Origin: a virus
Taxonomy: Duplodnaviria; Heunggongvirae; Uroviricota; Caudoviricetes
Length of the DNA stretch: 20,639 nucleotides
Reading direction: 5' to 3' (one strand)
Virus record (IMG/VR): IMGVR_UViG_2648501143_000006
Part shown: positions 12,001 through 18,000 of the stretch, piece by piece
Layout: each line of letters opens with the position of its first letter
How positions within the stretch are numbered: the stretch's first letter is position 1
Position numbers: made by a program

Positions 12001-15000
12001 CAGATTTCATCACGATTGCCACGGACGGTTTTTCATCAGGCTTTTGGATAATGTGCGCCATCCACTGGATAAGATATTGGTATGCCTCTTCATTACCGGC
12101 ACAGACAACCTGCAACAGGTGATTAAGGTATACCGTGCAATCTCCTTCAATTGGTTCCAGTGCCAGCCCCTCATACAGATTAAAAACATCGTCAGGGCAT
12201 TTGTCTGGTACTGGATAAAATCCTACGCCTCCTGGCTTGTAGTTCTTCCCACTCCATGACAGCCACGCCGATCCCGCCAGCTTTCTGGCGACTCTCGGTT
12301 TATGATGAAAATAATGCTGAAATTGTGATAAATCCTCGAAAACGTGCGATACACCGCCGGTTTGAGAAGGCTTTAGCGACACCACCTTGTGTTTCCCGCC
12401 AATGGTGACATGCGTAAACGTCCGGTTGATTTCTTCGAGGACAGCAATTTCATCATCGCTTAACACCTCGCCAGAACTGATCTCATTCAGCGCCCCGACT
12501 GACTGTTTGTGATTTTTCACCTGCGCCCCTTTCCCCCGTGGCTGGTACATCGAATCTTTAAATGCTGCTGTGGCTGCCGCCAGCCCGTGTTGTTGGTGAT
12601 AGTCGTTCCAGTCGGCTTTATAGTCAGTCGGTGGCAGAGACACCCAGCCAGCTACGGAAATAGCGGCCCTCTCTGCGGCATCTTTCCCCGTGTTGATCCC
12701 TCCACTTTCGGAGTTTCCTTGCTGGTGATCGTTATCTGCGGCAATGATGATTTGTGCCTGTGGATATGTTCTGCGCATGACTTCCGCTACTGGCAACAGG
12801 TTGCCAGCGTCGATTGCTGCCACTGTCATTGCGTCAGGGCGAATTAAATGGCACGACAGGGCGGTAGCCACCCCCTCAGCAATTATGATGCTGTGAGGTC
12901 GTTTCTGTGCGTTTATGGCGTGATATGCCCCCCGCTTTGCCGAACCTGTCAGGAGTCTTTTTTCACCATGTGAGGTAATAGTCTGTGCTGCTGTGACTGC
13001 GCCGGATTTATCCACCAGCGCCAGCAACAGAGATCCATCGGGCAACACGGGGAATGTAAAATCACCTACCCCTTTCGCAACCAGATAATCAGATTTGCCG
13101 TTTACAGCCTTTCTGCGCATGTCATCAAACTGACGGGAAAACGTATCCCGTCTTTGTTGTTCGTCCTTCTCTGCCCTTTTCAGGCGCTCCTGTTCGCGTC
13201 GCTGGCGCTCGGTTTCCAGTTGTTCCCGTTTCTGGCTGGTGGCTTCTGGTGTTTCCGTTGTCCGGTAATCAATACCCAGAACATCAGCGGCAAGCAGCGC
13301 CGCCTCTGTTGTGTCGCAGTTATTTACGCGTTTAATTAAATCCAGCCCATCACCAGCGCCGCACTGATTACAGATGAAGCTACCGCGCCCGTTGTCATCG
13401 AACCGGAATCGATCTTTGCCCCCACATGCAGGGCAGGGAGCATGACGGCGCGGAGAGTCAGGGACATTTATGTTCAGGCAGCCCAGCACATGAGGCCAGT
13501 TGTTTTCAGACGCACTGATAACCTGACGGATAAGATCAATGTTTCGCATCACCGTACCCCACGTGGTCTATAGCGTTTGCGATATGGCTAACCAGCATCT
13601 GCCACTTGGTTATTCCGTAATCAGTCAGCATGCCATCATTGTTTAGCCACATATCAAATTCAGCGGTTGTCGCAAGTTTCCACTTATCGCCGTGGACAGT
13701 CCTCATTGCTGGGTACATGAATGCGCAAATCAGATCACAAACATCTGACGGCTTCAGAGATGTAGTAATGGTGCGTCCCTCTGGCGTCTGAATTGCCATT
13801 TTCTCTTCACCAGTAGAATGAAGGTTATGAATCCACACAGCACCAGCAATCTTTGCCACCTGCTCTCCGATTGCGGAGCTAAGCGCCATTTCTGCATTTT
13901 CACGCATGAGAACCTCCCGCTACAGTTGCGCCCATGTCATTAACCATGCTTTGCCATATCTCACGCCCGACGTCAGTCAATCCGTCCTTAGTGACGCAAC
14001 GATCAAGAAGCTCGATCCCCACGGTTTCCCACTGCGGGTAGAACACTTTCATGGCTGCCAGTGTGTAGCTATCGATCAGGCTGCGAACGCCTTTTACTCC
14101 ATTGACGATTTCCACACGGACGGCCTCGCCGTCCGCATCAACCATGAAATAGTCCCCGCCGCTGGTGGAGGTAATGTGGTTATACAGTGCCGACGCATAC
14201 TTATTTGCCAGCGCATTCAGTCGGAAATTTTTAGTAATCATGGTTCCATCCTCAGTGCGTCACTGGTTCCGCTGGCATGCCGTTTTCATTCAGTTCAGCT
14301 ATAAAGCTGTTGTGAAGTTCAGCAAGCGTTTCACGACCAAATGGAGTCAGTGCTCCTTGTTCCACATCCATCATGGCTCTGTAGAAAATGATGGCGCGTT
14401 CTGTGCCAGACTCGATGCCAAAACGTTCTATCATCGCGCCCTCAATGTTGTTTGCCATAGCGAGGCGCTCTGCTACTGGATACAGCGGCATGGCGACGAT
14501 GCCGTTGGAATAAACAGCCACTTCGGAAGGATTGCCAGTATCATCAATGATGCTGACAGTGCCGTTTTCCTCTCTCATTTCCAGCATGAATACTGTTGCG
14601 ATCAGCCATCTCCACATAATGACGTTATGCTGTGATGTGTAATCGAAATATCCCTGGTTACCGCCATCGGCTATAGCGAGATGTATTGACATACCTTCAT
14701 CTGGTTTATCGTCATAATCCCCGGCATCCAGACGATTTACGGCATCAATATATGAGACGGCCTCAACGCGTTCTGTCATGCCATCGTTGCTGCGGTACAT
14801 GATGTTTACGCCGTCAGGCGTTGCTTCTGCATGGAAAGTTAAGAAATTATTCATGTTTCGCCTCGCCTGAATGATTCTGTAACTCATATTTGCCCAACAA
14901 TTCGTCCGCTTCCTGAATAGCTTCTGGTACGCCATTGAGCAGTGACATAACCGCGCCAATCATTAACTTGTCTCTGTTGCTGGGGCTGGCCCCTTCAAGC

Positions 15001-18000
15001 CAGAACCCTAAAACAGTCTGAACCTGTTCGATGCGACATTGCGCTTCAATGAGCTGGATGTTGGTCATTTCGCACTCTCCACATCGATTAAACCGATATC
15101 TATCAGGGAGGTAACTTTTTGTAGCCAGCTATTGATTACTGTCGCCTGTTCCCCTCCCACCGAGGGAACAATCTCATTCATCACATGAACCAGACCTGTG
15201 CGCGCTCTGGTAAGCCGTTCAGTCGCGCAATCTGCGGGAGTGAATGTGTCTGGATATGGCTCTTCACGCCCCAGCAATGATTCAATTTCCAGCTCACACG
15301 GATGACGATAAATTAAGTTGATATTCATTTTTCACCCCCAAGAATTACCTGCTCGGCACGGGCATCGTTAACCAAAGATGAGCACGCTTTAATCGCATCC
15401 ACGACATCAGCAGCGTCCATTTCTTCAGCCGAAAGACTGACAGCAACCAGGACAGCCGCTGCTTGCTCGATTAATTGAAGTGCGGACGTAAGGCGAGGGG
15501 TATTAATTGAGTTATTCATTGGTTGCCCCCGTTTTTACTGGCATTTCGCCACCTTCCAGCAGGAAATGAACGTCACGAACGGCGAGATCCAATATCGCGA
15601 GTAACGCCTTCAGTTTTTCGTCTCGTGAGGGAGAGTTGCTCACCAGAATGTCATTAATCACTTCTGTCAGTGTGATGATCTGGCTTGTGCGTTCGAGGGG
15701 GTCCATATGCACATCGTAGGTTTTAATCATGTGCCACCTCCATGCGGATACGACCAGCAAAAAAGCAGACGTGATCGCGCACCAGAGAACGGCGAGCATC
15801 GCGTTCAGACTCGGCAGCAATATGATGAATTTTGGCGGTAATTGTCGGGCAATCGCGGCGAACTGCGGCGATAATCCAGATAAATTGCGGTTTTTGGGTA
15901 GGGGTAGTAGCCAGCATGTGGCAGCCTCCTTGATTGATGGTTTATAGCCACCGCCCAAGAGACCAATCTTGCTGGCGGTGGACTGTACGGAGTTGGCCTT
16001 ACTGGCAATCAAGGAAACCAGCCTACCCGAAGGTAGCCCCATACAGCCCACCATTGATAAGGTGTGCGTGTGCGCCGATACAAAAAAAGACGCTGGCGCG
16101 TCATGTATCGCCTCGATTGTCAGCGGGAGGCCAATCCCGGCACCCGTTTTATGAGGTGCCTTATAACCATAAACCGTGTTGCCGCATAACGGCAAGCTCT
16201 TTTTTATGGACTCCGAAAACTCACTATTGGAAGCACCAGATGCACAATACATCGCGCTCATTTCGTTAACGTCACGCGCATGGACGAAGGTTTTTGTGGA
16301 GTCACTACGCGAGAAGAGAAAGCCATCTACGACCAGAAATTCTCTGGCGCAGCCGCTGACCTTCTCAACGCTAACACCATCGACCGTGTTTTCTGACATA
16401 GTTAAGGCATCCGCTCCTACCACCAGCAAATGATAAACTTTGCTTGTATCTGCTGTATTAATGCCTGATTTTGCCGTCATATTGCTGGATTTTGGCGACA
16501 TGCCAGCCAGTGAAAATATCTTCTTCTGGGCGGTTAGCATTTGTTAACCTCCGCGAACTCCTTCATGAAACGTGCCAGCGGTTGTACGCATGGCGATTGA
16601 TACCCGTCGCGATAAAACGTCACTCGGTTGTGAGACACGCTTTCGACAGTAACGAGTGCTCCGTGGGCATCTTTGTAGCGTTTTTGAGGTTGTGGTGTTC
16701 CTGTCGGCTTAAACATGGACCGCCTCCAGACGCTTGGCGAGCCAGCGTTGCGACAGGCGGGTGAGTTCTCCTTTGCGCTGCTCATATTCCATGCCCATAT
16801 CAATTAACGTGATATTGGTGCTTTCGAGATATGAGAGGTGCTCAAGCTGTTCTGCGTTCATATGGTCGCGAGGTTCGCCAGAATAGCCATTTATCCGCGC
16901 CCACTGCTTAGCAGTTAGCCCACCAAGAACGATACGAGAAATCATATTGCTCTCGTTTGTGTAGTGGTGTTGCTGCGTCGTTTTCCCCTGCTCGGCACGG
17001 GCCATGTTCAGCGCATCGCACATTGGCTTAAAGTTGTTTGCGGCACTGATACGGGCTTTTAGCTGGCGACGATAGCGGGCGGCGATTTCAGGAACGCTAC
17101 GCTGTAATTCTTCCTCGCACTGGATGAAATAACGGCGGATAGCGCGCCCCTGATCATTGCGTTCGATCATTGCCAGTTCTTTCGCCATTCCGACACTTAA
17201 CAGATAGTCTTTGCCGGGTCTGCCAGACTGCTTAATCTTGCTGTAAGCCGCGCCATTCGGGATTTTCCCCAAATTTGGGGAAATAGTTTTATGGACTGAG
17301 TAATCGTGCCCAATGGTGAAGTCATATTCAGAGATGCGATCAGTGATCCATGTAGAGAAGTCTTTTCCCACGCCCAACGCTTTGTGTAACGCTTTTGCGC
17401 TAACAATATTGGTTTCACGCCCACCGATATGGCCAGGAATAACCGGGACAATTGCGGCAAATTCATTACCGTTAATTGTACCCAGAGAGGCGTTCAGATG
17501 AGGGGCAGCCTCAGAAATTAATCTGCTTTTTTCGATGTTCATTTTCAGTCTCCGTTAGGCGGCGTTAAACGCGTTCGGGTAGAGTTTCAGAATGTCGGCA
17601 ATTTCCTGCTGAGAAAGTCCGTTGTGATCATTTATGTTCGCAAGATGGTTAACATGAGTGATCACTTTCAGAACATCACCACGGCAGGAGAAACGGTAGC
17701 GAAGGTGTGTTCCGATACCATCAGGATTTTTTTCGTCGATACGCTCCAGAGTGATTCCAAGCTGGCGTTCTAACTCTGTTGCATAGTTACGACCAGAAGA
17801 CAGACGGCAGTAGCGAAGAATGTCATTTTCTGTCCATCCCTCTATACCAGTACGCAGCATATAGACTCTGGCACGATGCTTTTTCGGTGTGCGCTTTGGT
17901 GCTTGAAGGGATTTTGTCAGGGGCGTAACATCAGATACGCGAATATCTGAATTAGCCGCCTGTAATGGGCGGTTTTTCTTTTCCATCAGGCCACCTTCCC

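What the first reader, a model, noticed from the sequence alone, without database searches (positions are those of the whole stretch)
13536..16716. Chain of about ten translationally coupled small genes between the antirepressor and the primase
Every junction is a start/stop overlap or a gap of 10 nt or less, so the genes are likely co-translated from one alpA-driven transcript. Early operons of small, often acidic proteins in phages and satellites are a frequent source of host-takeover and anti-defense factors. None has a recognisable motif apart from the Icd-like ORF.
Basis: partly seen in the sequence, partly recalled or inferred. Interest (0 to 1): 0.4.

Follow-up and report, generated by a model that had tools for sequence, protein, structure and literature searches.

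The report
RNA-gated replication operon of a phage satellite
The run of overlapping small genes is real, but it is the P4-type early/replication operon of an E. coli phage satellite, gated in its middle by an antisense-RNA immunity switch; the overlaps most likely relay that on/off decision down to the primase, so this is a known kind of system rather than a special anti-defence arsenal.

Summary
The chain exists on the minus strand. From the antirepressor to the primase the junctions are -8, -7, -8, -8, -4, -4, -8, +10, -8 and -14 nt.

One link, a 342-codon ORF that RefSeq calls an "ash family protein", is not an ordinary gene. It covers:
- a sigma-70-like promoter;
- an isrK/seqA-type RNA with its terminator;
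- a C4/CI antisense RNA;
- the Icd-like gene, in another frame;
- a 72-aa gene, in the same frame;
- on the other strand, a 107-nt piece of P22 gene 3 that starts at the pac site.

The C4 loops pair with the Icd ribosome-binding site and with boxes inside isrK. These pairings covary across 17 specificities in 26 loci, phage P4 included. In every locus the "ash" frame is open across the RNAs, and its start overlaps the stop of the upstream gene.

This matches the left operon of satellite P4 (vis, seqA-cI-seqC, eta/kil, small genes, alpha). The element itself is a relative of the PICI EcCIMP1.

Downstream of icd there are 1-8 small acidic genes. Their content varies but their order and coupling are conserved. 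Three of them (g200, g113, g123) look remotely like P4 ORF106 (DUF5375). No anti-defence role is shown.

Verdict: new member of a known kind, moderate interest.

The parts
17986..18189 (-). alpA-like regulator, head of the upstream module. It is the counterpart of P4 vis.
   Evidence: Pfam Phage_AlpA 2.2e-8. 34% identity to P4 vis, E 2e-7.
17555..17986 (-). 143-aa basic protein of unknown function. It overlaps the alpA stop by 1 nt.
   Evidence: Conserved at 54-99% identity in most related loci.
16709..17542 (-). AntA/AntB-family antirepressor-like protein.
   Evidence: Pfam AntA 1.2e-21.
16534..16716 (-). 60-aa DUF4222 protein. It overlaps the Ant stop by 8 nt.
   Evidence: Pfam PF13973 6.1e-25. 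Junction.
15512..16540 (-). 342-codon 'ash family' ORF. I read it as an eta-like read-through (bridging) ORF. Its start overlaps the DUF4222 stop. It runs over the promoter, isrK, C4 and icd (in the +1 frame) and ends at the g72 stop.
   Evidence: The Phage_ASH hit maps onto the translated RNA genes. One frame is open across the RNAs in all 25 satellite loci and in P4. The ORF start is coupled to whichever gene lies upstream. Variable sites fall 12:9:14 by codon position. Upstream of isrK there are 746 non-redundant codons with no stop, against 0.058 stops per codon in the other frames.
16286..16392 (+). Fragment of a P22-type small-terminase gene (gene 3). It begins exactly at the pac site and lies antisense to the satellite operon.
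   Evidence: 87% identity to P22, E 2e-33. The match starts at P22-pbi position 4, which is the start of the annotated pac site at 4-25. It matches 16 of 22 bases of the pac site and 16 of 17 positions of the published pseudo-pac pattern (PMC11226127).
16166..16195 (-). Promoter-like element of the P4 PLE type: TTGCCG, 18 nt, TATGGT, then 6 nt to the first base of isrK.
   Evidence: Conserved in the window and 17 of 18 satellite loci; P4 has TTGCCT plus TATAGT and the P1-like phage TATGCT. It was not picked up by the simple consensus scan.
16083..16159 (-). isrK/seqA-type RNA. It carries the a1 box (16129-16134) and the b1 box (16111-16119), and ends in a terminator hairpin (16089-16102) followed by a T-run.
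   Evidence: Rfam RF01394, 65 bits against a gathering score of 50. Terminator. Boxes and their covariation.
15971..16058 (-). C4/CI-type antisense RNA. The b2 loop is UCCUUGAUUG (16006-16015). The a2 box is GGCCAA (15993-15998).
   Evidence: Rfam RF01695, 79.2 bits against a gathering score of 45. Covariation with its targets.
15927..15966 (-). Downstream target sites. a' is UUGGUC (15961-15966). b' is CAAUCAAGGA (15927-15936), which covers the Shine-Dalgarno sequence of icd.
   Evidence: Direct complementarity. 14 of 17 pairs show compensatory changes, 93% of cells are paired, and 0 of 500 shuffles reach the observed values.
15723..15917 (-). Icd-like protein of 64 aa. It is the counterpart of P4 Kil and the first gene under C4 control.
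   Evidence: NCBIfam phage_ICD_like, 71.7 bits against a cutoff of 25. 43% identity to the last 65 aa of the P4 'cI ORF', E 4e-8.
15512..15730 (-). g72, an acidic protein. It has its own Shine-Dalgarno motif and a start that overlaps the icd stop. It is also the in-frame tail of the ash ORF. It is a paralog of g64.
   Evidence: family F4.
15325..15519 (-). g64, an acidic protein and paralog of g72.
15065..15328 (-). g87, an acidic protein of family F3, present in 16 of 26 loci.
14847..15068 (-). g73, an acidic protein of family F5. It matches phrog_20558, which has no known function.
14252..14854 (-). g200, a strongly acidic protein (net charge -21). Its C-terminal half is remotely similar to P4 ORF106 (DUF5375).
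   Evidence: phrog_1515, 5.7e-47. hhalign probability 91%, E 1e-6, against P4 ORF106. 141 clusters at 50% identity. The AlphaFold model is poor, pLDDT 48.
13900..14241 (-). g113, a probable distant paralog of g123 and possibly of the g200 C-terminal domain.
   Evidence: phrog_37628, 2.2e-49. hhalign against g123 gives 79-80%. hhalign against g200 gives 59-68%.
13536..13907 (-). g123. The confident model is helix, beta-hairpin, long helix, helix. Its invariant C-terminal GYGDAKH overlaps the primase start.
   Evidence: Family restricted to Enterobacterales (the named members are Escherichia, Kluyvera, Citrobacter and Serratia). pLDDT 87.8. No fold match in PDB or BFVD. Alignment.
11198..13549 (-). 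Primase-helicase, the last link of the coupled chain and the counterpart of P4 alpha.
   Evidence: Pfam Zn_Ribbon_Prim, Toprim_3 and DUF5906. 34% identity to the N-terminal 335 aa of P4 alpha, E 3e-42.

Best explanation
This is the early/replication operon of an EcCIMP1-family phage satellite (PICI). It is built like the left operon of satellite P4 and is controlled from within by an antisense-RNA immunity switch.

Quiescent state (inferred by analogy with P4, P1 and Gifsy-1):
1. A constitutive internal promoter just upstream of isrK makes a short isrK/seqA RNA.
2. Read-through of the isrK terminator yields the C4/CI RNA.
3. The two single-stranded boxes of C4 (a2 and b2) pair with a' and b' on the mRNA.
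4. This covers the ribosome-binding site of the Icd-like gene.
5. Every gene from icd to the primase-helicase starts on or next to the stop of the gene before it. Blocking icd initiation therefore starves the whole chain of ribosomes, and probably exposes the RNA to Rho. The primase is not made and the satellite stays silent.

After helper induction (inferred):
1. AlpA drives transcripts that start far upstream.
2. Ribosomes pass from Ant and DUF4222 straight into the 342-codon 'ash' ORF.
3. That ORF reads through the promoter, the isrK terminator, C4 and the a'/b' sites, as P4 eta does.
4. The switch is overridden in cis and translation is handed on to g64 and onward to the primase.

The small acidic proteins are variable passengers of this relay. 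The three next to the primase (g200, g113, g123) are probably ORF106 (DUF5375)-like, and so perhaps modulators of the initiator. The others are of unknown function. By analogy with P4 epsilon they could include helper-directed factors.

Shown here: the anatomy, the RNA families, the antisense covariation, conservation of the coupling and of the open frame, and homology to P4. Inferred: the promoter usage, the polarity, the read-through and the protein functions.
For: RNA families. Rfam isrK and C4 hits sit inside the chain. The same pair lies upstream of icd in all 19 loci found with the Icd protein, except that L028 has C4 only, and also in P4.

Antisense pairing.
- The a and b boxes covary three ways.
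- There are 17 distinct b2 loops. A loop with its own target gives -13.9 kcal/mol against -5.2 with foreign targets.
- The formal count gives 93.1% of cells paired against 67.8% in shuffles. 14 of 17 pairs carry double changes, 0 of 500 shuffles reach that, and slid controls give 32-47%.

Transcription signals. A terminator-like hairpin ends isrK. A PLE-like promoter is conserved upstream of it.

The ash frame.
- It is open for 189-656 codons across the RNAs in all 25 satellite loci.
- Its start overlaps or abuts the stop of the upstream gene (-8, -7, -4, -1 or +4; -14 in L017), whichever gene that is, in those loci and in P4.
- There is no codon-position bias in its N-terminal part.
- Upstream of isrK there are 746 non-redundant codons without a stop.

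Coupling from icd to the primase is conserved while the content varies.

Homology to P4. vis/alpA, Kil/Icd-like (E 4e-8) and alpha/primase (E 3e-42) all match. P4 has the same -8 overlaps at kil/eta to epsilon and at epsilon to orf151.

Literature.
- isrK equals seqA and C4 equals CI; both Rfam models hit Gram-negative PICIs (PMC10111431, PMC3632133).
- isrK has its own promoter. A C4-like RNA is processed from read-through transcripts, and translational coupling is required downstream (PMC4825925).
- alpA is helper-induced and needed for the EcCIMP1 cycle (PMC11773190).
- From memory, not retrievable here: Forti et al. 1999, J Bacteriol 181:5225, showed that P4 eta starts upstream of PLE, nests kil, overlaps cI, and that its translation prevents termination of PLL transcripts.

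Identity of the element. The chain is 97.6% identical to the island in strain NGF1, which has the published EcCIMP1 layout.
Against: - No expression data exist for this element. Promoter use, C4 processing, Rho dependence and translation of the ash ORF are all inferred.
- The simple promoter scan did not flag the PLE-like site.
- The lack of codon bias in the ash N-terminal part would also fit an untranslated region. An open frame across conserved RNA genes is partly a by-product of RNA conservation.
- In the window the ash frame is not nested with icd but with g72. Read-through would therefore bypass Icd. This is a departure from P4 whose consequence is unknown.
- The ORF106 (DUF5375) link rests on profile-profile scores only. 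There is no Pfam hit even at E = 5.
- The g200-g113 relation is weak (59-68%).
Confidence: 0.75

Rival explanations
1. The chain is an arsenal of host-takeover or anti-defence proteins, co-translated from a single alpA-driven transcript. The coupling merely reflects compact early-operon design.
For: - The seven proteins after icd are small and acidic; g200 has a net charge of -21.
- The content is variable and mosaic across loci.
- Most have no family with a known function.
- The P4 precedent: epsilon, in the same position, derepresses the helper prophage (PF25738; PMC8628076).
- EcCIMP1 affects helper biology (PMC11773190).
Against: - There are no hits to defence or anti-defence models, or to solved structures.
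- The gene order is conserved rather than cargo-like.
- The three genes next to the primase relate remotely to P4 ORF106.
- The single-transcript idea ignores the internal promoter, the terminator and the antisense RNA.
Confidence: 0.2
2. The 342-codon ORF encodes a genuine 'Ash' protein, and the RNA-family hits inside it are incidental.
For: - The Pfam Phage_ASH hit lies above its cutoff (50.6 against 26 bits).
- The ORF is open in all relatives.
- RefSeq annotates it as a protein.
Against: - The Pfam match coincides with the isrK and C4 coordinates.
- Both RNAs score well above their gathering thresholds and covary with their targets.
- There is no codon-position bias.
- The N-terminal part is unrelated among loci. 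In the window it contains a phage terS fragment on the other strand.
- The ORF length and its downstream fusion partner change with 1-nt indels.
Confidence: 0.05
3. The region is a decaying prophage or island remnant, and the overlaps are inherited and no longer functional.
For: - The EcCIMP1 region was first called an incomplete prophage, and the element transduces at a very low rate (PMC11773190).
- Some relatives carry frameshifts, such as the g72-g64 fusion in L009.
Against: - All ORFs in the window are intact.
- 337 E. coli genomes carry at least 80% of the region.
- The compensatory covariation and the diversification of immunity types imply ongoing selection.
- EcCIMP1 excises, circularises and transfers in an alpA-dependent way (PMC11773190).
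Confidence: 0.05

Closest known systems
Left (early/replication) operon of satellite phage P4: vis, PLE, seqA, cI, seqC, eta/kil, epsilon, orf151, orf106, alpha
   Same: - The gene order is the same, and vis/alpA, Kil/Icd-like and alpha/primase are homologous.
- The same two Rfam RNAs occupy the same places.
- The a and b box architecture is the same.
- A long ORF coupled to the upstream gene reads across the RNAs.
- The junctions after kil are -8 overlaps.
- An ORF106/DUF5375-like gene lies next to the primase.
   Different: - No psu, sid or delta is present. The late region carries P22-type gp14, gp7, gp20 and gp16 homologues, so the helper is P22-like rather than P2.
- Ant and DUF4222 are inserted between alpA and the switch.
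- No epsilon homologue was found.
- In the window the long ORF is in frame with g72, not with icd.
- There are seven small genes instead of three.
- The primase C-terminal domain is DUF5906.
immI region of phages P1 and P7 (c4, icd, ant)
   Same: - The isrK, C4 and start-of-icd segment is 86-87% identical in DNA to a P1-like phage.
- The a boxes are identical.
- From memory (Citron and Schuster 1990; Riedel et al. 1993): the antisense RNA blocks the icd ribosome-binding site, and control passes downstream by coupling.
   Different: - In P1 the controlled gene is the antirepressor. Here Ant lies upstream of the switch, and the controlled genes are the small chain and the primase.
- The P1-like phage has no start-bearing ORF across the RNAs.
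- The b box differs, so the specificity differs.
Gifsy-1 isrK-orf45-anrP locus of Salmonella
   Same: All from PMC4825925: isrK has its own promoter and terminator. A C4-like RNA (STnc1160) is processed from read-through transcripts. A downstream ORF overlaps that RNA. Translational coupling (AUGA) is required for expression of the next gene.
   Different: There, the short IsrK RNA activates translation in trans, and the output is an antirepressor-like protein and an antiterminator cascade, not a replication operon.
EcCIMP1, a PICI of E. coli MP1/NGF-1 mobilised by the P22-like phage Kapi1 (PMC11773190)
   Same: - 97.6% DNA identity over Ant to primase.
- The same genes and the same P22-type late genes.
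- The same pac-like allele.
   Different: - A different integrase and insertion site: yicC-dinD here, tRNA-Thr/proA there.
- A different primase C-terminal domain: DUF5906 here, DUF927 there.
- A different immunity specificity: b2 is UCCUUGAUUG here and UCCUUGUAC there.
- The paper does not describe the RNAs, the nature of the 'Ash' ORF or a packaging site.

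Membership tests
C4 antisense RNA (Rfam RF01695; P4 CI RNA) | Covariance-model score above the curated gathering score, with the long outer stem enclosing two hairpins | tested here: met
   79.2 bits against 45, full-length match over model positions 1-87.
C4 antisense RNA (Rfam RF01695; P4 CI RNA) | Two exposed boxes (a2, b2) complementary to target boxes upstream (a1, b1) and downstream (a', b'), the latter at a ribosome-binding site | tested here: met
   Complementarity in the window. Covariation across 17 distinct sequences: 93% of cells paired, 14 of 17 pairs with double changes, 0 of 500 shuffles. Own against foreign duplex energy: -13.9 against -5.2 kcal/mol.
C4 antisense RNA (Rfam RF01695; P4 CI RNA) | Released from a longer transcript by RNase P; represses in trans | not testable with these tools
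   The only indirect sign is a conserved CCA after the outer stem.
isrK / P4 seqA RNA (Rfam RF01394) | Model score above the gathering score; three hairpins, the last being an intrinsic terminator; located upstream of C4 | tested here: met
   65 bits against 50. Terminator hairpin plus T-run. Found 24 nt upstream of C4.
Icd-like host cell division inhibitor (NCBIfam NF033153) | Profile score above the cutoff | tested here: met
   71.7 bits against 25. 43% identity to P4 Kil.
Icd-like host cell division inhibitor (NCBIfam NF033153) | Inhibits cell division or kills the cell when expressed | not testable with these tools
P4-like satellite (core set int, psu, delta, sid, alpA, epsilon, alpha; PMC8628076) | Presence of psu, sid and delta, the capsid-size and late-control genes | tested here: not met
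   None appears among the Pfam hits of the large ORFs or in the RefSeq annotation of the 99.7% identical island. P22-type gp14, gp7, gp20 and gp16 homologues are there instead.
P4-like satellite (core set int, psu, delta, sid, alpha, alpA, epsilon; PMC8628076) | int, alpA and an alpha-type primase, with the immunity RNAs between alpA and alpha | tested here: met
Gram-negative PICI, EcCIMP1 type | The order int, alpA, primase, then helper-related late genes, in an island of about 20 kb, with sequence relatedness to a validated member | tested here: met
   Layout. 97.6% identity to the NGF1 island, which has the published EcCIMP1 context (PMC11773190).
Gram-negative PICI, EcCIMP1 type | Helper-dependent excision, replication and packaging | not testable with these tools
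   Shown for EcCIMP1 only (PMC11773190).
Pfam Phage_ASH (PF10554) | Profile score above the gathering score | tested here: met
   50.6 bits against 26. However, the matched residues 124-219 are the translation of isrK plus C4. Membership therefore says nothing about a protein function.
DUF4222 (PF13973) | Profile score above the gathering score | tested here: met
   87 bits against 27.
DUF5375 / P4 ORF106 (from my memory the cnr copy-number regulator) | Pfam PF17345 score above the gathering score | tested here: not met
   No hit for g200, g113 or g123 even at E = 5, and none in 51 relatives of g200.
DUF5375 / P4 ORF106 (from my memory the cnr copy-number regulator) | Remote homology by profile-profile comparison, and a position next to the primase | tested here: inconclusive
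   g200 family against P4 ORF106: probability 91%, E 1e-6, over 89-92 columns. g113-g123: 79-80%. g200-g113: 59-68%. PMC8628076 places the cnr family between epsilon and alpha.
P22 pac site | Match to the 22-bp pac sequence, or to the pseudo-pac pattern that P22 terminase uses | tested here: inconclusive
   16 of 22 and 16 of 17 positions at the homologous place. Such motif matches are not rare by chance (3 in the window against 1.6 in shuffles). The significance comes from the 107-nt homology (E 2e-33).

The most novel reading that the evidence does not exclude
The 107-nt piece of a P22-type small-terminase gene at 16286-16392 is functional. It begins exactly at the pac site, and its 51-nt core is identical to P22. 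It lies inside the read-through ORF but on the opposite strand.

There are two possible roles:
1. It is the satellite's packaging signal, a copy of the helper's pac region. This would explain how EcCIMP1-type islands, which have no terminase or capsid genes, get into P22-like heads.
2. Because the satellite mRNA carries its complement, it acts as an antisense RNA against the helper's terS message.

Either way, the productive helpers should be phages with a P22-type TerS. This would explain the very low transfer by Kapi1, whose TerS is of the unrelated Sf6 type.
Probability: 0.35. Interest if true: 0.6.

Novelty: new member of a known kind. Interest (0 to 1): 0.35.

Why it matters
- It corrects a widespread annotation. 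The 'ash family protein' called in hundreds of E. coli genomes is a composite of a promoter, two regulatory RNAs and a read-through frame.
- It shows that the P4 immunity design (antisense RNA, coupled genes and a bridging ORF) also runs satellites of P22-like phages. It does so in at least 17 mutually distinct specificities, and this predicts which satellites can coexist or cross-repress.
- It gives a concrete reason for the extreme gene overlap, and direct experiments to test it.
- It narrows the truly unknown part to four or five small acidic proteins that can be screened.
- In passing, it offers a testable packaging hypothesis for EcCIMP1-type islands, whose mechanism is reported as unknown.

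Tried and rejected
- **Ubiquitin-like g123.** A PDB sequence search gave E-values as low as 4e-15 to polyubiquitin. These come from summing weak matches over tandem repeats; a single ubiquitin scores E 0.6. The confident model (pLDDT 87.8) is helical with one hairpin and has no ubiquitin or other fold match. Rejected.
- **g200 structure.** The AlphaFold model reached only pLDDT 48, so I made no fold search.
- **g200 and g113 against PDB sequences.** Nothing found.
- **PADLOC on all chain proteins.** Nothing found.
- **Direct Pfam DUF5375 membership.** Not met.
- **P4 epsilon or orf151 relatives among the small genes.** None by hhalign.
- **afdb50 fold library.** Not available.
- **P4 primary papers.** Sabbattini et al. 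1995 (PMC176756) is not held, and two literature searches for the P4 immunity/eta-kil papers failed. The eta/kil details are therefore cited from memory.
- **Kapi1 as the source of the terS fragment.** Rejected. There is no similarity, and its TerS is of a different type.
- **Scoring the pac motif alone.** Not significant by itself.
- **A single alignment register for b2/b'.** It does not fit every type; L005 is shifted by 2 nt. I therefore used duplex energies as well.

Full report
**1. Observation**

The region is coding on the minus strand. I recomputed every junction.
- Ant (16709-17542) to a 60-aa gene (16534-16716): overlap of 8 nt.
- That gene to a 342-codon ORF (15512-16540): overlap of 7 nt.
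- The next junctions are -8, -4, -4, -8, +10 and -8. They lead through g64, g87, g73, g200, g113 and g123.
- g123 to the primase-helicase (ATG 13549): -14.

All starts have Shine-Dalgarno-like motifs.

Such overlaps also occur in the island's late genes, so tightness alone is not exceptional.

**2. The odd link**

The 342-codon ORF, which RefSeq calls an 'ash family protein', is a composite.
- Rfam places an isrK RNA at 16083-16159 (65 bits, gathering score 50).
- Rfam places a C4 antisense RNA at 15971-16058 (79 bits, gathering score 45).
- isrK ends in a GC hairpin followed by a T-run.
- The Pfam Phage_ASH match covers exactly the translated RNA genes.
- The Icd-like gene (NCBIfam, 71.7 bits) lies at 15723-15917 in another frame.
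- The last 72 codons form a gene with its own ribosome-binding site. Its start overlaps the icd stop.
- On the plus strand, 16286-16392 is 87% identical to P22 gene 3.

**3. The RNA switch**

The hairpin-2 loop of C4 (UCCUUGAUUG) is complementary to CAAUCAAGGA. That target covers the icd Shine-Dalgarno sequence. The loop also pairs with CAAUCGAGG inside isrK.

A second box (GGCCAA) pairs with UUGGUC downstream and UUGGCC in isrK.

I compared the window with five E. coli relatives, a P1-like phage, 19 loci from more than twelve enterobacterial genera, and P4 itself.
- All three copies of each box change together.
- There are 17 distinct loop types. A loop with its own target gives -13.9 kcal/mol against -5.2 with foreign targets.
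- On an alignment of 17 distinct sequences, 93.1% of cells pair against 67.8% in shuffles.
- 14 of 17 pairs carry compensatory changes, 0 of 500 shuffles reach that, and slid controls give 32-47%.

This is the a1b1/a2b2/a'b' design known from P1 and P7, and the seqA/cI/seqC design of P4. Rfam even has a family for the a1b1 targets. The papers I could read equate isrK with seqA and C4 with CI, and note hits in Gram-negative PICIs (PMC3632133, PMC10111431).

**4. The bridging ORF**

- In all 25 satellite loci, one frame stays open across isrK and C4 for 189-656 codons. The other frames close after 8-129 codons.
- In those loci and in P4, the start of that frame overlaps or abuts the stop of the gene before it (-8, -7, -4, -1 or +4; -14 in L017). 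This holds whether that gene is Ant, DUF4222, another ORF or P4 vis.
- Upstream of isrK, five unrelated versions of this frame total 746 codons without a stop. The other two frames carry 0.058 stops per codon.
- The variable sites in the window's N-terminal part fall 12:9:14 over the three codon positions. The peptide itself therefore seems unconstrained.
- Where C4 lies a multiple of 3 nt from the icd ATG, the frame is that of icd, giving nested genes. Where the distance is 1 nt shorter, as in the window, the frame runs on into g72.

From memory, this is what Forti et al. (1999, J Bacteriol 181:5225) showed for P4. There, eta starts upstream of PLE, nests the 65-aa kil, and overlaps cI. Its translation lets transcripts from the regulated upstream promoter escape immunity-dependent termination. 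I could not retrieve that paper.

The window's Icd-like protein is 43% identical to P4 Kil (E 4e-8).

**5. The passengers**

Between icd and the primase, the 26 loci carry from 1 to 8 small genes drawn from about 20 families.
- The order is conserved: g72/g64 or F9, then F10, g87, g73 or F8, g200, g113, g123, then the primase.
- 108 of 134 junctions are overlaps and 20 are gaps of 3-16 nt.
- The content is therefore variable and the architecture fixed.
- All seven proteins in the window are acidic, with pI 4.2-5.6; g200 has a net charge of -21.
- g72 and g64 are paralogs.

The genes next to the primase show remote relationships.
- g113 and g123 are probable distant paralogs.
- The C-terminal half of the g200 family matches P4 ORF106 (DUF5375) at 91% hhalign probability.
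- PMC8628076 places the cnr copy-number gene family between epsilon and alpha in 90% of P4-like satellites.
- That cnr is ORF106 is from my memory.

No function could be assigned to g72, g64, g87 or g73.

**6. What the element is**

- The window is 99.7% identical to an island between yicC and dinD in E. coli ETEC1721.
- Over this region it is 97.6% identical to the island of strain NGF1. That island has the layout published for EcCIMP1, a PICI mobilised by the P22-like phage Kapi1 (PMC11773190).
- The late region encodes homologues of P22 gp14, gp7 and gp20 by Pfam. The next ORF, 701 aa and without a Pfam hit, is annotated as an injection protein in RefSeq and sits where gp16 sits in P22-like phages. 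The region has mosaic DNA similarity to P22-like phages.
- About 337 complete E. coli genomes carry at least 80% of the region.

**7. Mechanism**

Shown: the anatomy, the RNA families, the antisense covariation, the conserved coupling and open frame, and the homology to P4.

Inferred:
- In the quiescent state, transcripts start at the internal promoter (TTGCCG, 18 nt, TATGGT).
- These transcripts yield isrK and, by read-through, C4. C4 then blocks the icd ribosome-binding site.
- Because each later gene depends on the ribosome of the one before, the block spreads to the primase.
- After helper induction, AlpA-dependent transcripts from upstream carry ribosomes through the bridging ORF and override the block.

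The Gifsy-1 work supports several of these steps experimentally in a related locus. It shows the isrK promoter, processing of a C4-like RNA from read-through transcripts, and the need for coupling (PMC4825925).

**8. Rivals**

- **An anti-defence or host-takeover arsenal.** This is not excluded for the four or five unknown proteins. P4 epsilon is a precedent. Nothing here supports it, and it does not explain the RNAs.
- **A genuine Ash protein.** This is unlikely for the reasons given in sections 2 and 4.
- **A decaying remnant.** This is contradicted by the intact ORFs, the compensatory evolution and the EcCIMP1 experiments.

**9. Seen in passing**

- The P22 gene 3 fragment starts at the annotated pac site. 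It matches 16 of 17 positions of the published pseudo-pac pattern (PMC11226127). It is present in about 484 E. coli genomes.
- The fragment is absent from a relative with a different late region (L005).
- It is unrelated to Kapi1, whose TerS is of another type.
- It is antisense to the satellite operon.
- It may be a pac mimic or an antisense RNA against helper terS. The motif match alone is not significant.

**10. Verdict**

It is incomplete on transcription and unsupported on function.

The system is a new member of a known kind, P4-type immunity in an EcCIMP1-type PICI. The useful by-products are the re-reading of the 'ash' ORF, the catalogue of immunity types, an ORF106 (DUF5375)-like paralog set, and the pac lead.

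Noticed in passing
window 16286-16392 (+ strand), inside the 'ash' ORF: A 107-nt fragment of a P22-type small-terminase gene that begins at the pac site. Its 51-nt core is identical to P22. It is present in about 484 E. coli genomes, is antisense to the satellite operon, and is unrelated to the TerS gene of the only known helper, Kapi1. It could be a packaging signal or an antisense RNA against helper terS.
   Followed up: partly
window 4624-9282 (- strand): The satellite carries its own homologues of the P22 ejection and head proteins gp14 (DUF2824), gp7, gp20 and gp16. They show mosaic 86-96% DNA similarity to E. coli and Salmonella P22-like phages, Kapi1 included. It has no capsid or terminase genes.
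   Followed up: partly
window 19305-19371 (- strand): Rfam int-alpA RNA (RF02996, 54 bits) lies just downstream of the integrase gene, between int and the 326-aa ORF. The same motif recurs in many related loci.
   Followed up: no
window 15876-16176 against L004 (P1-like phage vB_EcoM-673R5) and P1-like plasmids (H14, H15): The isrK, C4 and start-of-icd segment is 86-87% identical to P1-like phage-plasmids. The a boxes are identical and the b box differs. This raises the possibility of partial cross-talk between P1-type immunity and the satellite.
   Followed up: partly
L006, L008, L009, L010, L011, L032 (between isrK and C4; alignment A2 columns 675-712): Other alleles carry a 39-nt insertion, containing a perfect TATAAT, between the isrK terminator and C4. 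This may be a separate promoter for C4. The window and the P1-like phage lack it.
   Followed up: no
L032 (NGF1, the EcCIMP1 layout) against the window: Near-identical satellites differ in their immunity boxes. The window has UCCUUGAUUG and GGCCAA; EcCIMP1 has UCCUUGUAC and CUGCGAA. They should therefore be hetero-immune. There are 17 loop types among the 26 loci.
   Followed up: yes
L005 6382-6956; L006 and L010 'ash' pseudogene calls; L009 2588-3841: There are several annotation artefacts in RefSeq. Small chain proteins are named 'nicotinic acetylcholine receptor subunit beta' and 'ubiquinol-cytochrome C reductase'. The same locus is called variously as ash protein, ash pseudogene plus Icd, or a 417-aa fusion. 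In L009 a 1-nt deletion merges g72 with g64.
   Followed up: partly
window 13536-13560: The invariant C-terminal GYGDAKH of g123 coincides with the Shine-Dalgarno motif and start codon of the primase (14-nt overlap). The conservation may therefore be at the nucleotide level.
   Followed up: no
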